A stretch of DNA of 64,000 bases from contig CAZSQN010000001.1 in NCBI GenBank assembly GCA_964609095.1, positions 130,354 to 194,353 of the forward strand. Direction: 5' to 3'. The notes under the pieces are model-generated. The model was given only the letters and a program-made list of their open reading frames with translations. It ran no database searches and was not told where the DNA came from. The position numbers and the translations under genes were made by a program. Within the stretch, counting starts at the first letter, position 1. The number at the start of each line of letters is the position of its first letter. This document shows, in pieces, positions 1,518-52,890 of the stretch. The stretch comes from an uncultured Gammaproteobacteria bacterium (GTDB lineage Bacteria > Patescibacteriota > Patescibacteriia > CAZSQN01).

Positions 1518-1805
1518 ATGAATGTACGTCCTCTTGGAGACAGAGTGATTGTGCGGCCTATTAAGGAGGAAGAGGCCACCAAGGCCGGTATTATTCTCCC
1601 CGATACCGCCAAGGAAAAGCCGGAACGCGGCGAAGTTATCGCCGTTGGTCCTGGCAAAATGCTTGAAAACGGAACGCGCGTGGCGATTTCCGTTAAAGCG
1701 GGAGAGAAAGTATTGTTTAAAAAATACAGCCCTGACGAACTTAAGGTCGAAGGTCAGGAGGTCTATGTGCTGCGGGAGGAGGATTTACTCGCGGTAATCG
1801 AATAG
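1518..1805 (+). CDS. groES: Co-chaperonin GroES
   Basis: 95 aa; MNVRPLGDRVIV...mobile loop and roof motifs typical of GroES; immediately upstream of groEL. Confidence 0.95.
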   Translation: MNVRPLGDRVIVRPIKEEEATKAGIILPDTAKEKPERGEVIAVGPGKMLENGTRVAISVKAGEKVLFKKYSPDELKVEGQEVYVLREEDLLAVIE

Positions 1806-1817
1806 CCATAAGCCCTA

Positions 1818-1842
1818 AGCTATATGCCATAAGCATATAGCT
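1818..1842 (+). promoter_or_regulatory. Perfect intercistronic stem-loop between groES and groEL
   Basis: agctatatgc-cataa-gcatatagct, 10-bp perfect stem, 5-nt loop; followed by direct repeat cttacagcc x2. Confidence 0.4.
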
Positions 1843-4728: not shown

Positions 4729-5100
4729 ATGGAAAATGAAATGAGCCAGAATGTATTGCAAGAAGCAAAGCCGGCTCCAACTAAAGACAAAGATATTGAA
4801 GACAACAAAATTATTGCCGCCATCTCCTATTTGGGCGTTCTGGCTTTTATTCCTTTGCTTTTGAAAAAGGATAGTCCGTTTGCCCAGCACCACGCCAGGC
4901 AGGGCCTCGCGCTTTTTATGGTCTGGATAGCGTGGGGAATAGTTGGTTTGTTTTTTTCACTGGCGCAGCTTTCCGCGCTTGTTAATTTGGGCTATTTGAC
5001 GCTTATCGTCATAATGATTATAGGAATTTCCAAGGCCTGGAAAGGCGAGCTCTGGCAGCTGCCTATAATCGGCGAGTACGCGAAAAAACTTAAATTTTGA
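4729..5100 (+). CDS. DUF4870-like small membrane protein
   Basis: 123 aa from ATG 4729 (ORF track start 4666 is over-extended); IAAISYLGVLAFIPLLL...FAQHHARQGLAL motif typical of DUF4870; TTGCGA-N17-TGGTATAAT promoter ends 7 nt before the ATG (near-leaderless). Confidence 0.5.
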   Translation: MENEMSQNVLQEAKPAPTKDKDIEDNKIIAAISYLGVLAFIPLLLKKDSPFAQHHARQGLALFMVWIAWGIVGLFFSLAQLSALVNLGYLTLIVIMIIGISKAWKGELWQLPIIGEYAKKLKF

Positions 5101-5209
5101 ACATAATGCGAATTTCGCGAATGAACGCGAATGCCGCAAATATGCAAATACGGTATTCGCACATTCGTAGATTGGCATAAAATTCATATTATTCGCGTTA
5201 TATTTTTTT

Positions 5210-12254: not shown

Positions 12255-13007
12255 ATGACTTACCGAACACTGGGTATTGTCTTGCGCCGCCGCGATGTGC
12301 GCGAAGCCGACCGACTTTATACTATTTATACCCGCGAACACGGCAAGATTGAGGCCATCGCGCGAGGCGGCAGAAAGATGGCCTCAAAATTATCTCCGCA
12401 TTTGGAAACATTTGCCACGGTGGATTTGTTAATTGCCCGGGGAAGATTGTGGGACCATGTTGCCGGCGCGGAATGCGCTTTGCGTTTTGGCGAAATCAGC
12501 TCACGCTATTTACCCACTGTTGCCGCGTGCTACGGTCTGGAAGCGATTGACGTTTTTACAAAGCACGGAGCTCGCGATCTCGGGCTTTGGAATTTGCTTC
12601 TTGAATATCTGCGCGCGCTGAATACCATCCCCGGCGGCTCATCGGCCGGAATTCTTTTTGGAATCACCAGAGCTTACTCTTGCCAGCTGCTTGCCCGTTT
12701 GGGAGTCGCGCCGGAATTGGGCAGATGCCATAATTGCAAGACGACGGATTCTCCGTCTTGGGAACTTGCTTCCGCCGGGATTCTTTGCTACGGTTGTTCC
12801 GGGATAAAGATGAACGAACCGTCAATGCCGCTTGGAAAAGAAGCTCTTTTACTTTTAAAGGCATATTGCCAAGAGCCGCTGGATAAATTTCTTTCGCCCT
12901 TGGAGGATGGTGGCGGCAATAAGGCGGCTTGGGGAGCCGTTGATTTTCTTTTAAGGACGCAGCTCGGAGCCAATCTTAAAAGCGAAAAATTTTTGAGCGT
13001 CAATTAG
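12255..13007 (+). CDS. recO: DNA repair protein RecO
   Basis: 250 aa; N-terminal OB fold region and C-terminal Cys4 zinc motif (CHNC...CYGC). Confidence 0.85.
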   Translation: MTYRTLGIVLRRRDVREADRLYTIYTREHGKIEAIARGGRKMASKLSPHLETFATVDLLIARGRLWDHVAGAECALRFGEISSRYLPTVAACYGLEAIDVFTKHGARDLGLWNLLLEYLRALNTIPGGSSAGILFGITRAYSCQLLARLGVAPELGRCHNCKTTDSPSWELASAGILCYGCSGIKMNEPSMPLGKEALLLLKAYCQEPLDKFLSPLEDGGGNKAAWGAVDFLLRTQLGANLKSEKFLSVN

Positions 13008-13022
13008 CCGGAGGAGAGAGAA

Positions 13023-18164: not shown

Positions 18165-18241
18165 TGGTAGCGGGGGCCGGAATCGAACCGGCGACCTAGG
18201 GCTTATGAGTCCCTCGCTCTAACCGACTGAGCTACCCCGCC
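18165..18241 (-). tRNA. tRNA-Met (CAU), elongator-type (or Ile2-lysidine; CAU anticodon)
   Basis: Reverse complement folds as cloverleaf GGCGGGGUAGCUCAGUCGGUUAGAGC...CUCAUAA...GGUUCGAUUCC...ACCA; paired 1:72; CCA encoded. Confidence 0.85.
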
Positions 18242-18545
18242 GTGCGCTCGCTTACCGACCGCACTCTCGTTCATGCTCAATGCTTCGCCTTCACTTTCGT
18301 GCAGTCGCCGCTCGCTGTTGCGTCTGTACAACAGAAGCAGCTATATTAGGGTGATTTTAAATTCTCTGCCCACAACTGTACACACAACGCTGGTTTTGTG
18401 CACGGTTGCGGGGGTGGGATTTCTTTCGCTCCGACTCAAGTCCGGGCGCTGCGTACCAGCCCGATAACATCGGGCTTACTCGCGTCCTTCAAATCCCGTC
18501 CTTGATCCGCGCAACACTGTACAGAAGAAATAGCTTCTGTCCACT

Positions 18546-18618
18546 GTTGCGGGGGTGGGATTTGAACCCACGACCTCCAGGTTATGGGCCTGGCGAGCTG
18601 CCACTGCTCTACCCCGCT
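18546..18618 (-). tRNA. Initiator tRNA-fMet (CAU)
   Basis: Closely parallels E. coli tRNA-fMet (GAGCAG D-region, CCCAUAA anticodon loop, UUCAAAUCC T-loop, CCCCGCAA 3' end); unpaired A1:A72; CCA not encoded. Confidence 0.8.
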
Positions 18619-18675
18619 GTATTTACAGTAAATATTATCATAATTTAGATTTGTTGTCAATTTGAAAATTTTCTC

Positions 18676-19623
18676 ATGTATATTTCTCTTTTTTACGATG
18701 TCATCATCATGGGTTTTCTGCTTTTGACCGGCGCGGGAATTATTTTTCTTGTTTTTTTTAAATCAGCGCGCAGCCGCTTTTGGGTGAGGCATAAAAAGCT
18801 TTTTGCGGCTGCGCTCTCCGCGCTCGGCCTCATATGGTTTGTTGTTTTTTACGGGTCGTTTATCGAACCGCGATTGATAGTTCTGGCAAATTACGAATTT
18901 AATTCAAAAAAGGTCAGCCGACCCATGCGCATAGCGGTGGTGTCAGACACGCATGCCGGACCGGCAAAAGGGAAAAGATTTATTAAAAGATTGGCAAATA
19001 AAATAGAGCGCGCTAAACCCGATGCCGTTTTTTTGCTGGGCGATTTAATCTCCGATGATGAAAGCAATATTCCTTTGCTTGAACCATTGCTGGCGCTCTC
19101 CGCGAACACGCCTACTTTTGCCATTTTGGGAAATCATGATTACTTGGGCGTGCCCAATCAGGGACAGGTTGTAAAATCATTTTCGCCGCTTGAGCCGTAT
19201 TTACGCCGATACGGAGTTACGGCGCTCAAAAATGAAAATACTCAAATTGAGCTGAATGGGAATAAACTGGCCATTGCCGGAATTGACGATCTTGCTTCCG
19301 GAGCGCCGGATATGCGAGCCGCACTTATGGGAATGCCGCCGGAAGCATTGCGCGTTCTTTTATCGCACAGTCCCGACGCGGTTTTATATTTAAAACCGGG
19401 CGAAGTTGATATGGTTATGTCAGGGCATACGCATGGCGGCCAGATTCGGCTTCCTTTTATCGGTCCGATTGCGCCAGAACCAACTGTTTTGGGAAGGAAG
19501 TTCACGCGCGGATTTTATGTCATAAATAATATCACCCTTTTTATTACCTCCGGGGCTGGGGAAAGCGGGCCGCGCGCCAGATTGTTTGTGCCGCCGGAGA
19601 TTGCCATATTTGAAATAAAATAA
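18676..19623 (+). CDS. Membrane-anchored calcineurin-like metallophosphoesterase
   Basis: VSDTHAG, GDLISDD, GNHDY, SGHTHGG motifs; two N-terminal TM helices. Confidence 0.75.
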   Translation: MYISLFYDVIIMGFLLLTGAGIIFLVFFKSARSRFWVRHKKLFAAALSALGLIWFVVFYGSFIEPRLIVLANYEFNSKKVSRPMRIAVVSDTHAGPAKGKRFIKRLANKIERAKPDAVFLLGDLISDDESNIPLLEPLLALSANTPTFAILGNHDYLGVPNQGQVVKSFSPLEPYLRRYGVTALKNENTQIELNGNKLAIAGIDDLASGAPDMRAALMGMPPEALRVLLSHSPDAVLYLKPGEVDMVMSGHTHGGQIRLPFIGPIAPEPTVLGRKFTRGFYVINNITLFITSGAGESGPRARLFVPPEIAIFEIK

Positions 19624-19648
19624 CCCCGACAAATCGTCGAGGTTGTTT

Positions 19649-20086
19649 TTATTTAGCTTTTGGTTTGGCGAATTTGGCGGAAACAACGGCTTTGAGGTTG
19701 TCTTCGCGAGACGGGTTTGGATTCATGCCATAAATATTCACGTCTACCCAAATCCATCTGGCGTTTTGTCCTCGCGCTTTAGCAACGGCGATGAGGCGGA
19801 AGTCAAGAAGAGTCGTTGGCGAAATAAGATCATAGCTTATATGAGCGAGCGGCGTATGGCCGTCAGAAAGCGTGCTCATTGCCGCCATAACTGCCGCGGC
19901 GTCAGCCAAAACTGCCAGCACCCCGCCTTGCACAATCATCATTGGACCCGCTGTCACCAGGTCGTTCATCTCTATTTCCATAGAGACCTCGGCAAATCCC
20001 GGCGAGAGGCCGTCAAGTCGCAGAGGAAATTTTTGTCCAAGCGGAGCATCGTTGAACCATTTTTTTAGCTCTTCCAATCTGTCCAT
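19649..20086 (-). CDS. PaaI/4HBT-family hotdog thioesterase
   Basis: 145 aa; GGVLAVLADAA...hotdog pattern; RBS ggaggag; TAATG overlap with upstream gene. Confidence 0.65.
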   Translation of the reverse strand: MDRLEELKKWFNDAPLGQKFPLRLDGLSPGFAEVSMEIEMNDLVTAGPMMIVQGGVLAVLADAAAVMAAMSTLSDGHTPLAHISYDLISPTTLLDFRLIAVAKARGQNARWIWVDVNIYGMNPNPSREDNLKAVVSAKFAKPKAK

Positions 20087-20493
20087 TAGCGAGCTCCTCC
20101 CTTTTTTGAACTTGGTCTTCTGGAACTAGACACCTTGATTGCGCGCCGCGGCTCGTCAATCCAGCGGATATTTGAAAGGATACCGCGGCGAGTATTATGA
20201 CAGACCATAACAGTGGCGCCACGGCCTTCATAGAAGTTGAGATTATCATGCCACCTCTCATCGCACTCAACCGAGATCGCGCGATCGTTCTCGCGGACTG
20301 TTTCAACAACTGTTCCTTTTCGCCAGATATTGCCGGCTGTTCTAACTTCAACACGAGTGCCGAGAGGAAAGTTTGCCCACCCCGTCTCAAAGTCATCCAT
20401 GCCCGGATCATCCCAGTAAAGTTTTCCATTGGTCGCTTCAGCAAGACGGTCAACTTTAGATTTTTCTTTAACCATCAGGTTTTCTCCTTTCAA
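20086..20493 (-). CDS. Hypothetical protein (possible start MVKEK at 20475)
   Basis: 135 aa ORF co-directional and overlapping by 1 nt with thioesterase gene; no recognised domain. Confidence 0.4.
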   Translation of the reverse strand: MKGENLMVKEKSKVDRLAEATNGKLYWDDPGMDDFETGWANFPLGTRVEVRTAGNIWRKGTVVETVRENDRAISVECDERWHDNLNFYEGRGATVMVCHNTRRGILSNIRWIDEPRRAIKVSSSRRPSSKKGGAR

Positions 20494-20664
20494 GGATCTG
20501 TTTATTGTTTATAACAAAAAAACACTCCTGTCAACCCCGCTCCTTTCTTAGAACTGGCTATCACTTTACGCCAACTAAAGCCGCAGGCGTTTCCGTGATT
20601 AAGATTCTCAATAATCAGTAAATAAACTTTGAGAAAGGGGTGGGGGGTCAAGGGTGCTTTGTCT

Positions 20665-20750
20665 TGGTGCCGCGGGAGGGAGTTGAACCCTCATGACCTT
20701 GCGGTCGCGGGATTTTGAGTCCCGTGCGTCTGCCATTTCGCCACCGCGGC
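20665..20750 (-). tRNA. tRNA-Leu (CAA)
   Basis: Reverse complement GCCGCGGUGGCGAAAUGGCAGACGCACGGGACUCAAAAUCCCG + long variable arm + GAGGGUUCAACUCCCUCCCGCGGCACCA; CCA encoded; ORF 20648..20875(-) overlaps it and is rejected. Confidence 0.85.
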
Positions 20751-20947
20751 TTATAGTATTTACTGCCGTAAATTAGAAAACTGTTTGCGGTGTCGACCCG
20801 GGCAACTTTTTGTTGCCCGCGAAGCCCTCGCCTGCTCGGACTTCGCCCACCGCGGCGATGTTCGTATTTAATCATACTTTTTAAAAAGTATCAACAAGAA
20901 TCGGTTGCGGGAGTTAGCTTAAAGCTGTAAGCTATATAGGAAATCAC

Positions 20948-21054
20948 ATTATTATAGTTGCGGCTGTTGTACAGACGCAAAAGCGAACGGCGGATGAGCG
21001 AAAGTGAGGGCGAATAATTGAGCCCGAACGGGAGCTAGTCCGGCAAGTGAGCTC
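20948..21054 (+). promoter_or_regulatory. Conserved structured leader motif, copy A (upstream of parA)
   Basis: ...tagttgc[hairpin]aaagcg..gagcgaaagtgaggg..cccgaacgggagc..gagctcATG shares boxes CGAAAGTGAGGG and CCCGAACGGGAGC with copies at 50697-50823 and 52785-52890. Confidence 0.6.
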
Positions 21055-52495: not shown

Positions 52496-52524
52496 TTGAC
52501 AATCGTGGCTTAAGATGCTATTAT
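52496..52524 (+). promoter_or_regulatory. Consensus sigma70-type promoter TTGACA-N17-TATTAT
   Basis: -35 TTGACA 52496-52501, 17-nt spacer, -10 TATTAT 52519-52524. Confidence 0.7.
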
Positions 52525-52530
52525 TAGCGC

Positions 52531-52771
52531 AATCCGGCACAGTCGCAGGACACAACCGGACAAGAGCTAAGATATAACCATGCGGTTATTATCTGATGCT
52601 CAAGCAATAGTGAATAGTAGCGTTGACTGGCCAAGACGCGCTTGTGTCGAGCCCGGAACATTAAGTTCCGATTGCCCCTCCTGGCTATGCACGCCGAATC
52701 CGCTAATTGCTAAAGGAAAGAAGCTCGGTCGTGTGTTTGGCCCCACCTTTGTTGTGGGGCCACTTTTTTTT
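52531..52771 (+). ncRNA. Candidate small non-coding RNA (about 240 nt), identity unknown
   Basis: Bracketed by the consensus promoter and a strong terminator (tggccccac-ctttgtt-gtggggcca + T8, 52738-52771); only ORF (52580..52801) runs through the terminator; internal stems (ccgg...ccgg, cggaac-atta-gttccg). Confidence 0.45.
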
Positions 52772-52784
52772 ATGTATAATAAAG

Positions 52785-52890
52785 ATAATTCTTTAATGTA
52801 GTTGCATTCGTTGTACGAATGCAAAGCGGAGCGAGACACTCGCGAAAGTGAGGGTAAAACCCGAACGGGAGCGAGTGTCGGAAGCGAGCA
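52785..52890 (+). promoter_or_regulatory. Conserved structured leader motif, copy C (upstream of nrdR)
   Basis: ataattctttaatgtagttgc + hairpin (gcattcg-ttgta-cgaatgc) + aaagcggagcgagacactcgcgaaagtgagggtaaaacccgaacgggagcgagtgtcggaagcgagcaATG. Confidence 0.65.

What the first reader, a model, noticed from the sequence alone, without database searches (positions are those of the whole stretch)
18165..20990. tRNA-bounded 2.7-kb segment with partial tRNA duplications and a 17-bp inverted repeat: possible integration or rearrangement scar
Between tRNA-Met/tRNA-fMet and tRNA-Leu lie three non-core genes: a metallophosphoesterase, a PaaI thioesterase and a hypothetical. Three features flank them. 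(i) A 17-nt copy of the fMet 3' end, TTGCGGGGGTGGGATTT at 18407-18423, lies 120 bp from the intact gene at 18547-18563. (ii) A 15/16-nt copy of the tRNA-Leu 5' end, TTCGCC(C)ACCGCGGC at 20841-20856, lies near the original at 20735-20750. (iii) TTGCGTCTGTACAACAG at 18318-18334 is exactly inverted at 20964-20980, each next to an AGCTATAT(T)AGG box. Duplicated tRNA ends are the classic footprint of site-specific integration at tRNA genes. No integrase is present here, so this would be a remnant or a recombination hotspot.
Basis: seen in the sequence. Interest (0 to 1): 0.5.

Follow-up and report, generated by a model that had tools for sequence, protein, structure and literature searches.

The report
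Structured inserts beside tRNA genes
The three repeats are real, but they are not the scars of one inserted island: each belongs to a different small structured element, and the one behind the initiator tRNA is a widespread, apparently undescribed element that always ends in an exact copy of its neighbouring tRNA's tail.

Summary
All three repeats exist and are non-random, but they do not bound the three genes.

(iii) The 17-bp inverted repeat is the core of a 119-nt, 77% inverted repeat. It comprises two of four window copies of a ~100-nt structured 5' leader cassette with covarying helices. The cassette abuts tRNA-Met, parA, ftsZ and nrdR, and is present or absent at orthologous sites in relatives.

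(i) The tRNA-fMet 3'-end copy is the terminal repeat of an 'X unit': tRNA, spacer, a short flank complementary to the T-loop/T-stem, a conserved two-hairpin core, then an exact copy of the tRNA from nucleotide ~57 to its 3' end. One relative has the empty site. A metagenome scan found 65 X units behind tRNAs of 15 amino-acid identities, each carrying its own tRNA's tail. X is not in Rfam and was not found in the literature searched.

(ii) The tRNA-Leu 5' copy begins a two-hairpin 'Y' element. In another contig, Y interrupts a tandem tRNA-Leu copy.

The locus is a rearrangement hotspot: gene content and tRNA orientation differ in all three relatives. No integrase is present.

The mechanism of X spread and its function remain inferred.

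The parts
18165..18241 (-). elongator tRNA-Met(CAU); last gene of the tRNA-fMet > X > leader > tRNA-Met transcription unit
   Evidence: ARAGORN; Rfam tRNA 68.9 bits
   Evidence: CM R1 98 bits; fold; alignments; same cassette before tRNA-Met in L019
18365..18405 (-). second, diverged copy of the sequence that follows tRNA-fMet (hairpin plus TGTACAG); this is the original downstream flank, matching the single copy in L019
   Evidence: D2 (58-nt repeat, 74%); flank identity 23/40; L019 sequence
   Evidence: tracks the T-stem difference between the window (CCCAC) and L021 (CCCGC)
18423..18490 (-). X core: GAAGGACGCGAG, hairpin P2, GGUACGCAGCGCCC, then hairpin P3 with loop GAGUCGGAGCGA
   Evidence: CM R2 73 bits over 18407-18504; family alignment and covariation
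18491..18497 (-). left flank GGGATTT, complementary to the start of the displaced tRNA copy; closes the X hairpin (P0)
   Evidence: own-unit pairing 7.7 bp against 5.3 in permuted controls
18507..18514 (-). TTGCGCGG, a mimic of the tRNA-fMet acceptor 5' strand that can pair with CCCCGCAA of the displaced copy; also present in the fMet-associated X units of L021, L152 and L177
18546..18618 (-). initiator-like tRNA-Met(CAU), intact
18632..18660 (-). TTGACA-17-TAATAT promoter-like site upstream of tRNA-fMet
   Evidence: 10/12 match, TG-extended
18676..19623 (+). metallophosphoesterase gene; absent from this locus in L015, L019 and L021
   Evidence: Pfam Metallophos E=1.8e-15
19649..20086 (-).
20086..20475 (-). 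129-aa hypothetical ORF; no Pfam hit
20665..20750 (-). tRNA-Leu(CAA), inverted relative to parA compared with L015, L019 and L021
20776..20856 (-).
   Evidence: CM R1 105 bits
50710..50823 (+). leader cassette copy c3, ending at the ftsZ ATG (50824)
52799..52890 (+). leader cassette copy c4, ending at the nrdR ATG (52891)

Best explanation
The flagged segment is a tRNA cluster that has been colonised repeatedly by small structured insertion modules.

(a) Leader cassette. The inverted repeat is two copies (c1, c2) of a ~100-nt cassette of structured RNA. It sits between a promoter and the first base of a gene. It has four copies in this window, before tRNA-Met, parA, ftsZ and nrdR. It has spread within this lineage by copying, and c1/c2 are the closest pair.

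(b) X unit. This is a conserved two-hairpin RNA-like core closed by a helix. One strand of that helix is a short left flank and the other is the start of a copy of the upstream tRNA from T-loop nucleotide ~57 to its 3' end.
- I infer that X units arise by a duplicative insertion that leaves an intact tRNA plus a displaced 3' stub. This is the same outcome as for tRNA-targeting islands, but the unit is ~100-150 nt long and has no integrase.
- I infer that the unit is transcribed as part of the tRNA operon. Here that would run: TTGACA promoter, tRNA-fMet, X, leader c1, tRNA-Met, terminator.
- I infer that afterwards the tRNA-derived stub is held identical to the tRNA by selection or gene conversion while the neighbouring flank decays.

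(c) Y unit. The tRNA-Leu 5' copy is the mirror image of (b): the first 10 nt of tRNA-Leu followed by a two-hairpin element, upstream of the intact tRNA.

Shown: the architecture, copy numbers, covariation, filled and empty sites, and the distribution across tRNA identities.
Inferred: the insertion mechanism, transcription, and any function of X and Y.
For: Leader cassette
- 119-nt inverted repeat.
- Two further copies, before ftsZ and nrdR.
- All four copies fold alike.
- CM R1 finds 7 true copies at 77-105 bits in the DNA held.
- 13 of 17 pairs change on both sides, 0/500 shuffles reach that, and slid controls fall to 26-47% paired.
- The cassette is absent at orthologous ftsZ/nrdR/parA sites with conserved promoters. 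In L139 it sits in front of a different gene.

X unit
- Empty site in L019, filled sites in the window and L021.
- L021 has a second X behind tRNA-Leu, ending in the tRNA-Leu tail.
- 60 metagenome loci. 65 copies score 51-105 bits, against 24-32 bits for chance hits.
- The upstream tRNAs span 15 amino-acid identities. About four-fifths of the units listed carry an exact copy, at least 17 nt long, of their own tRNA's tail.
- The P2 and P3 stems covary, and the conserved loop shows a G-C/A-U swap.
- The left flank matches its own unit: 7.7 bp against 5.3 +/- 0.2.
- The tRNA-derived 20 nt are 17-20/20 identical (18-20 in all but one) wherever a repeat was found, while the next 40 nt range from 40/40 down to background.
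- L143 and L147 share a nearly identical X, but their spacers and flanks are unrelated.

Y unit
- Conserved with tRNA-Leu in L021. Family alignment with L158 shows 7 compensatory pairs.

Hotspot.
No integrase nearby.
Promoter.
Against: - No expression data. Many X units lie behind a terminator-like hairpin and no conserved promoter precedes them, so transcription depends on read-through.
- Single X sequences are not clearly more stable than shuffles (z -2.4, -0.8, -0.6).
- No recombinase, reverse transcriptase or other protein is consistently linked, so the insertion mechanism is unexplained.
- The left flank is a reverse complement of T-loop bases 57-60, not a copy of the native TTC. Neither simple tandem duplication nor a standard att core predicts this.
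- P1 of X is invariant because the search pattern required it, so it has no covariation support.
- The covariation count for the leader includes one spurious low-scoring row.
- The taxonomy of the metagenome loci was not determined.
Confidence: 0.6

Rival explanations
1. One reading: the three genes at 18.6-20.6 kb are, or were, an integrated island, and the partial tRNA copies and the inverted repeat are its att remnants.
For: Gene content between the tRNAs varies among relatives, and Metallophos is unique to the window. Displaced tRNA fragments do mark islands at tRNA genes in general (Islander, PMC4383910).
Against: The fMet 3' copy lies downstream of tRNA-fMet and the Leu 5' copy lies upstream of tRNA-Leu, so both are outside the gene segment. 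The inverted repeat is part of a 4-copy family that also precedes ftsZ and nrdR. The 145-aa gene is syntenic in L015 and L021. There is no integrase within about 10 kb.
Confidence: 0.04
2. The tRNA-end copies are just decaying tandem duplicates of tRNA genes (pseudogenes). X and Y are not entities of their own.
For: L158 has a whole tandem tRNA-Leu copy. L021 has a decayed 5' tRNA-fMet copy. L138, L199 and L176 have partial second copies that retain anticodon arms. The fMet-associated X units keep an acceptor-5'-like TTGCGCGG.
Against: The same ~75-90-nt core, with invariant loops and covarying stems, sits at the same T-loop position behind 15 different tRNA identities in 65 copies. Neutral decay cannot produce that. 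The stub stays identical while the flanks decay.
Confidence: 0.05
3. X and Y are intron-like inserts in second tRNA gene copies that are still functional. The interrupted copies would be transcribed and the inserts removed, as in archaeal multi-intron or split tRNAs, so the 'stubs' are exons.
For: In L158 the interrupted tRNA-Leu copy keeps exon segments identical to the intact gene. Patescibacteria tRNA genes commonly carry group I introns (PMC13011429; L153). MFE folds of read-through transcripts pair the acceptor 5' strand with the distal 3' copy.
Against: Most X units lack the 5' two-thirds of a tRNA and an intact tRNA always lies next door. X is far too small for a group I ribozyme and gives no Rfam intron hit. 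No splicing endonuclease was looked for.
Confidence: 0.1
4. X works at the DNA level: a folded single-strand or cruciform recombination site, like integron attC or CTX attP, used by a recombinase supplied in trans. The covarying stems would reflect DNA hairpins, not RNA.
For: There is insertion polymorphism with regeneration of the tRNA. Tandem X-repeat arrays exist (L152, L188). Larger integrase-less islets share the same layout (L154). X sits at the centre of a perfect palindrome formed by the left flank and the T-loop/T-stem copy.
Against: X has very high primary-sequence conservation in loops and junctions, unlike attC sites. No recombinase co-occurs within 3 kb. X is always co-oriented with the tRNA, as a transcribed element would be.
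Confidence: 0.15
5. The leader cassette is a conventional conserved cis-regulator, a riboswitch or protein-binding leader, of cell-cycle genes. It would not be a copied, portable cassette.
For: The structure has strong covariation. Its targets ftsZ, nrdR and parA are functionally related. It always ends at the start codon.
Against: It also precedes a tRNA in two genomes. It is absent at orthologous ftsZ/nrdR/parA sites of close relatives. It moves to another gene in L139. It is absent from 444 kb of other loci and has no Rfam match.
Confidence: 0.25

Closest known systems
tRNA/tmRNA-targeting genomic islands (tyrosine-integrase islands as catalogued by Islander, PMC4383910)
   Same: The outcome is the same: an intact, regenerated tRNA gene, followed in direct orientation by a displaced copy of its 3' part that starts in a loop (here the T-loop). 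Filled and empty sites occur among relatives, and stacked or tandem insertions occur.
   Different: The 'island' is only ~100-150 nt, encodes nothing, and has no integrase nearby or consistently linked. Its constant content is a conserved structured core lying directly against the displaced fragment. The same core is found at 15 tRNA identities, whereas an integrase/att pair is specific for one target.
[quoted passage not shown]
   Same: Structured RNA inserts in loops of tRNA genes, in the same phylum, mostly without homing endonuclease genes.
   Different: Those are ~200-400-nt ribozymes in the anticodon loop of the functional gene and are detected by Rfam RF00028 (as in L153). X and Y are 60-90 nt, lie in T-loop or D-arm positions of partial or extra copies, and give no Rfam hit.
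Bacterial intergenic repeat elements (REP/BIME, ERIC, Correia/NEMIS, RUP, MITEs)
   Same: Short, multi-copy, structured, non-coding elements that are present or absent at orthologous sites and are often co-transcribed with flanking genes.
   Different: There are no terminal inverted repeats of the element's own and no short fixed target duplication. X is strictly tied to one position of tRNA genes and carries a 17-21-nt or longer copy of the target. The leader is always placed with its 3' end against a start codon or a tRNA 5' end.
Putative mobile promoters ('Promoter propagation in prokaryotes', PMC3488235)
   Same: Similar upstream sequence blocks lie in front of unrelated genes within one genome (leader c1-c4).
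   Different: The copies are only 67-77% identical. What is conserved is an RNA secondary structure downstream of the -10 box, not the promoter itself.
tRNA-like processing signals fused to non-coding RNAs (MALAT1-mascRNA, tRNA scaffolds); from my own knowledge, not tested here
   Same: A structured RNA is joined to tRNA-like helices within a tRNA-type transcript, which could lend it processing and stability.
   Different: X units usually lack the acceptor 5' strand, and they copy the neighbouring tRNA exactly instead of merely mimicking tRNA shape.

Membership tests
Integrase-mediated tRNA-targeting genomic island | Intact (regenerated) tRNA plus a displaced fragment of the same tRNA in direct orientation | tested here: met
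   tRNA-fMet 18546-18618 and the copy of its last 17 nt at 18406-18422. The same holds in most X units that have a called upstream tRNA.
Integrase-mediated tRNA-targeting genomic island | Tyrosine (or serine) integrase gene inside the element | tested here: not met
   Only 124 nt separate the tRNA and its copy. No integrase is among the Pfam-annotated genes within about 10 kb. No recurrent recombinase occurs within 3 kb of X in 57 loci.
   The three genes lie on the other side of tRNA-fMet from its 3' copy. The tRNA-Leu copy is a 5' copy upstream of tRNA-Leu.
MITE / IS-derived miniature element | The element's own terminal inverted repeats, and a short target-site duplication of fixed length | tested here: not met
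   The closing helix of X is made of target-derived sequence and differs from unit to unit. The repeat is 17 to more than 60 nt and of variable length.
Group I intron in a tRNA gene | Group I catalytic core detectable by covariance model; interrupts the functional gene | tested here: not met
   No RF00028 hit on X, Y or the leader at E<=10. RF00028 is found where a real intron exists (L153). The adjacent tRNA is intact.
Any Rfam 15 family | Match to a curated covariance model | tested here: not met
   Only tRNA hits and sub-threshold noise were found over the window region, the ftsZ/nrdR region and ten X-bearing loci.
Structured RNA motif (generic): X | Base pairs supported by compensatory changes across many sequences | tested here: met
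   For the P2 and P3 stems, 24-28 of 52 sequences change on both sides at several pairs. There is a G-C/A-U swap within the conserved loop. P1 is invariant and therefore uninformative.
Structured RNA motif (generic): leader cassette | Base pairs supported by compensatory changes; controls fail | tested here: met
   90% of cells are paired, 13/17 pairs change on both sides, 0/500 shuffles reach that, and slid controls are 26-47% paired. There are only 7 true sequences.
Riboswitch / conserved cis-regulatory leader | Conserved upstream of orthologous genes across relatives | tested here: not met
   Absent upstream of ftsZ and nrdR in L139, L140 and L141, upstream of ftsZ in L138, and upstream of parA in L015, L019 and L021.
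Riboswitch / conserved cis-regulatory leader | Ligand- or factor-dependent control of expression | not testable with these tools
   This needs reporter or in-line probing experiments.
Putative mobile promoter (PMP) | Highly similar upstream block before non-homologous genes in one genome, containing the promoter | tested here: inconclusive
   Four copies lie before unrelated genes, but they are only 67-77% identical. At ftsZ and nrdR the recognisable -35/-10 boxes lie upstream of the shared block.

The most novel reading that the evidence does not exclude
X (with its relatives Y, 'X2' and 'X3') would be a new class of tRNA-tethered structured RNA. It would spread among tRNA genes in Patescibacteria-type genomes by a duplicative, integrase-independent route. 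It would be selected to keep an exact copy of its host tRNA's T-arm/acceptor 3' strand. That copy could let the acceptor 5' strand of a read-through transcript pair with it, giving a tRNA isoform that carries an extra RNA arm. Alternatively, the copy could serve as a processing handle or a decoy for enzymes or toxins that read that tRNA end. The partial tRNA 'scars' common in these genomes would then be functional parts of RNA genes, not debris.
Probability: 0.3. Interest if true: 0.9.

Novelty: new variant of a known kind. Interest (0 to 1): 0.7.

Why it matters
Partial tRNA copies are routinely read as att scars of islands. Here they are the arms of small conserved structured elements, so island-mapping logic would mis-call them throughout Patescibacteria-type genomes.

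X is an abundant, strongly conserved element with covarying stems. It is absent from Rfam, and its design is not known elsewhere: an exact tail of whichever tRNA it follows, across 15 tRNA identities. It is either a new kind of selfish element that solves the problem of inserting into an essential tRNA gene without an integrase, or a new tRNA-linked RNA with a host function. Either answer is directly testable with existing groundwater metatranscriptomes.

The leader cassette shows that structured 5' regions can be copied between cell-cycle genes and tRNAs within a reduced genome.

Tried and rejected
1. Genome-collection scan with the leader core GAAAGNGAGGG...CCCGAACGGGAG. It gave 8 hits, none from a candidate-phyla lineage.
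2. Viral-contig scans. The X pattern gave one chance hit in GC-rich coding DNA. A loose leader pattern gave 115 chance-level hits. There is no evidence of a phage origin.
3. Rfam at gathering and at E<=10 over all relevant regions: nothing but tRNAs and one group I intron.
4. A possible fifth leader copy at 57.5 kb is inside fusA coding sequence. The CM hit at 12937-13021 (15 bits) lies inside coding sequence. Both were rejected.
5. A protein partner for X. The most frequent neighbour is a small GIY-YIG ORF (7/57 loci), but it has no fixed position or orientation relative to X. It was rejected as a dedicated partner.
6. Inversion between the two leader copies as the cause of the tRNA-Leu flip. 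Flipping the whole inter-repeat segment does not reproduce any relative's layout. Only the Y + tRNA-Leu module is inverted.
7. Insertion after the T-loop TTC, as IS200/IS605-type targeting would give. This was rejected because the left flank is the complement of nucleotides 57-60 (ATTC, ACTC, AATC, ATTT), not the native TTC.
8. Copying of mature tRNA by a reverse transcriptase. This was rejected because the repeats follow the gene: there is no CCA where none is encoded, and some run on into the terminator.
9. Literature searches found no description of X, Y or the leader.

Full report
**Source and setting.** The window is from contig JACOZF010000007.1 of MAG GCA_016181485.1. Sources name its FtsZ as Candidatus Uhrbacteria bacterium, i.e. 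Patescibacteria. On the minus strand the region reads as follows:
- a TTGACA-17-TAATAT promoter-like site (18660-18632);
- initiator-like tRNA-Met (18618-18546);
- a 304-nt spacer;
- elongator tRNA-Met (18241-18165);
- a terminator.

To the right lie a metallophosphoesterase gene (+), a 145-aa ORF and a 129-aa ORF (both -, with no Pfam hit), tRNA-Leu(CAA) (-), and then parA/parB (+).

**Check of the observation.** All three repeats are present.
That is 2 matches against 0.01 expected.
- The tRNA-Leu 5' 10-mer recurs at 20847-20856, 2 matches against 0.20 expected.
- The 17-nt inverted repeat is exact. It is the core of a 119-nt, 77% inverted repeat (I1).
- The fMet copy is part of a 58-nt, 74% direct repeat (D2).
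- The two AGCTATAT boxes are not equivalent positions of the inverted repeat.
- Both tRNA-end copies lie outside the three-gene stretch, so they cannot be its att sites.

**The inverted repeat is a leader cassette.**
- Copies: a relaxed self-comparison found two more copies, 30 kb away on the plus strand. They end exactly at the ATG of ftsZ (50824) and of nrdR (52891). Copy c1 ends at the 5' end of tRNA-Met and c2 at the parA ATG.
- Fold: all four fold the same way. A long P2 helix encloses GAAAGUGAGGG...CCCGAACGGGAG, with a GA/GA-flanked inner helix.
- Model search: covariance model R1 finds seven true copies (77-105 bits) in the DNA I hold.
- Covariation: 13 of 17 pairs change on both sides. 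0 of 500 shuffles reach that, and the slid controls collapse (which includes one spurious row).
- Relatives: the cassette precedes tRNA-Met in L019, nrdR in L138, and the gene after nrdR in L139. It is missing from the ftsZ and nrdR sites of L139, L140 and L141, from ftsZ of L138, and from parA of L015, L019 and L021, although the promoters there are conserved.
- Breadth: it is absent from 444 kb of other metagenome loci and from Rfam.
- Spread: c1 and c2 are the closest pair (77%, against 67-69% for the other pairs), so c2 was probably copied locally.
- Reading: it is a lineage-restricted, portable structured leader. The nearest concept is promoter propagation (PMC3488235), but what is conserved here is an RNA fold. 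Its function is not known.

**The fMet 3' copy is the end of an X unit.** Comparison with relatives found through ParA shows three states.
- L019 has the tRNA-fMet tail and its downstream hairpin once, followed directly by the leader and tRNA-Met. This is the empty site.
- The window and L021 have the tail twice, with ~124 nt between the copies.
- L021 carries the same core a second time, behind tRNA-Leu, and there it ends in GGCTCCCTCCCGCGGCACCA, the tRNA-Leu tail.

A metagenome scan with two conserved X segments returned 60 loci. Model R2 scores 65 copies at 51-105 bits and the three chance hits at 24-32 bits.

The layout is constant:
- an intact tRNA, often with its terminator hairpin;
- a spacer of 23-102 nt;
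- a 6-10-nt left flank that is the reverse complement of tRNA nucleotides ~57-65;
- the core GAAGGGCGCGAG, hairpin P2, GGUGCGCAGCGCCC, and hairpin P3 with loop GAGUCGGAGCGA;
- an exact copy of that tRNA from nucleotide ~57 to its 3' end.

The tRNAs span 15 amino-acid identities. P2 and P3 covary heavily. The left flank matches its own unit better than other units do: 7.7 consecutive pairs against 5.3 +/- 0.2.

Some repeats continue through the terminator for more than 60 nt (L153/L190, L151, L160). In most units the 40 nt beyond the tRNA are at background identity, with intermediates such as the window at 23/40. The 20 tRNA-derived nucleotides remain 17-20/20 (18-20 in all but one unit) wherever a repeat was found.

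In the window and in L021 the tRNA T-stem differs (CCCAC against CCCGC), and the copy follows its own tRNA in each genome. L143 and L147 share an almost identical X between unrelated spacers. So X is under purifying selection, and its tRNA stub is kept matched to the tRNA.

Three searches came back empty for X:
- no protein is consistently linked to it;
- it has no Rfam family;
- the only related literature found concerns group I introns in anticodon loops (PMC13011429).

**The tRNA-Leu 5' copy is the start of a Y unit.** The ~105 nt upstream of tRNA-Leu are conserved together with it in L021 (85% over ~190 nt, in inverted orientation relative to parA). They are absent in L015. Beyond the first 10 nt they are not tRNA-like. 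They form two hairpins followed by GGGNCGAC.

In L158 the same design interrupts a tandem tRNA-Leu(CAG) copy after nucleotide ~10 and again in its T-loop. The exon parts of that copy are identical to the intact gene beside it. The four sequences align as one family with seven compensatory pairs.

Exact 5'-end copies are otherwise rare: 1 of 100 tRNAs. Other inserts follow the T-loop logic, namely 'X2' in L152/L188 and 'X3' in L161/L138. L138, L199 and L176 have partial second tRNA copies with inserts in several loops.

**The locus is a hotspot.** Relative to parA the layouts differ as follows:
- tRNA-Leu is inverted in the window compared with L015, L019 and L021.
- The fMet/Met pair is inverted in L019.
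- L021 has a GIY-YIG gene between tRNA-Met and a 67-nt tRNA-Met stub of another allele.
- L019 has a foreign tRNA-Leu allele followed by a 53-nt stub of the resident one and a truncated X.
- L015 has an IS200-type transposase gene next to tRNA-fMet.

Short-read assemblies of the window's own strain break inside tRNA-Leu and tRNA-fMet. L154 shows a 4.5-kb integrase-less islet with the same regenerated-tRNA-plus-stub layout.

**How it most likely works.**
- Shown: the architecture, the families, the covariation, the filled and empty sites, and the maintained identity of the stub.
- Inferred: X and Y units arise by duplicative insertion that regenerates the tRNA, the same outcome as for islands (Islander, PMC4383910), but without an integrase.
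- Inferred: they are transcribed with the tRNA operon.
- Inferred: the stub is retained because the element needs it. It forms the closing helix P0. In MFE predictions of read-through transcripts, the acceptor 5' strand pairs with the distal copy (prediction only).
- Possible route for the larger rearrangements: homology-anchored illegitimate recombination at conserved tRNA sequence in a competence-proficient organism (DprA is encoded nearby). This comes from general knowledge and was not tested.

**Verdict.** The island interpretation fails, and the 'insertion footprint / hotspot' intuition holds. The main result is that the fMet stub led to a widespread, apparently undescribed tRNA-linked structured element.

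Noticed in passing
window 52497-52770 (+): A TTGACA-17-TATTAT promoter-like site is followed by ~230 nt without a convincing ORF, ending in a strong GGCCCCAC...GTGGGGCC+T8 terminator just upstream of leader c4. This is a candidate small RNA. There is no Rfam hit above noise.
   Followed up: no
window 18546-18618 (-): The initiator-like tRNA-Met has an A1.A72 mismatch and the anticodon loop CCCAUAA, with C33 where U33 is nearly universal. The same is true in L015, L019 and L021.
   Followed up: no
L158 8520-8775 (-): A complete tandem tRNA-Leu(CAG) copy is interrupted twice by Y-type two-hairpin elements, after nucleotide ~10 and in the T-loop. Its exon segments are identical to the intact tRNA-Leu immediately downstream, which is itself followed by an X unit.
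   Followed up: partly
L152 ~5000-5150 (-), L188 ~1660-1830 (-); L161 2549-2660 (+), L138 14840-15060 (+): Two further insert types ('X2': GAACGGGAAAGGGTCGG...; 'X3'...GACCACCCGNAGGGYGG) have the same layout as X: a flank complementary to the T-loop, a structured core, and a copy of the tRNA tail.
   Followed up: no
window 18288-18299, 18423-18443, 20820-20835; family alignments A5, A7, A10: Purine-rich loop motifs of one style recur in the three otherwise unrelated elements: GAGNNGGCGA, GAGUCGGAGCGA and GAAAGUGAGGGCGA. The 3' tails of X and of the leader are also alike (GAGUCGGAGCGAGCA against GUGUCGGAAGCGAGCA). They may share a protein-binding or tertiary motif.
   Followed up: no
L138 9790-10000 (+): At the ftsZ upstream site where the window has leader c3, L138 has a different ~150-nt insert bounded by an 18-bp inverted repeat (ACCCCGCACACAACTTGC...GCAAGTTGTGTGCGGGGT).
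   Followed up: no
L021 3463-3777 (-); L138 14546-14776; L150, L161, L166, L200, L201, L142: Small GIY-YIG nuclease-like ORFs are scattered through tRNA clusters. In L021 one lies between tRNA-Met and a 67-nt tRNA-Met stub of a different allele.
   Followed up: partly
L154 8885-13233: A 4.5-kb integrase-less islet lies between an intact tRNA-Gln and a displaced tRNA-Gln 3' stub. It encodes a 957-aa NPPY-motif methyltransferase/restriction-like protein and a 299-aa ORF. An older X unit lies just beyond it.
   Followed up: partly
window 20705-20721 and 18574 (ends of L010-L014): Five independent short-read assemblies of the same strain end inside tRNA-Leu or tRNA-fMet. This is consistent with co-existing variants or repeats at these tRNAs.
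   Followed up: no
L015 1-260: The C-terminus of an IS200/IS605-type Y1 transposase, with subterminal hairpins, directly abuts the 3' flank of tRNA-fMet in the closest relative.
   Followed up: partly
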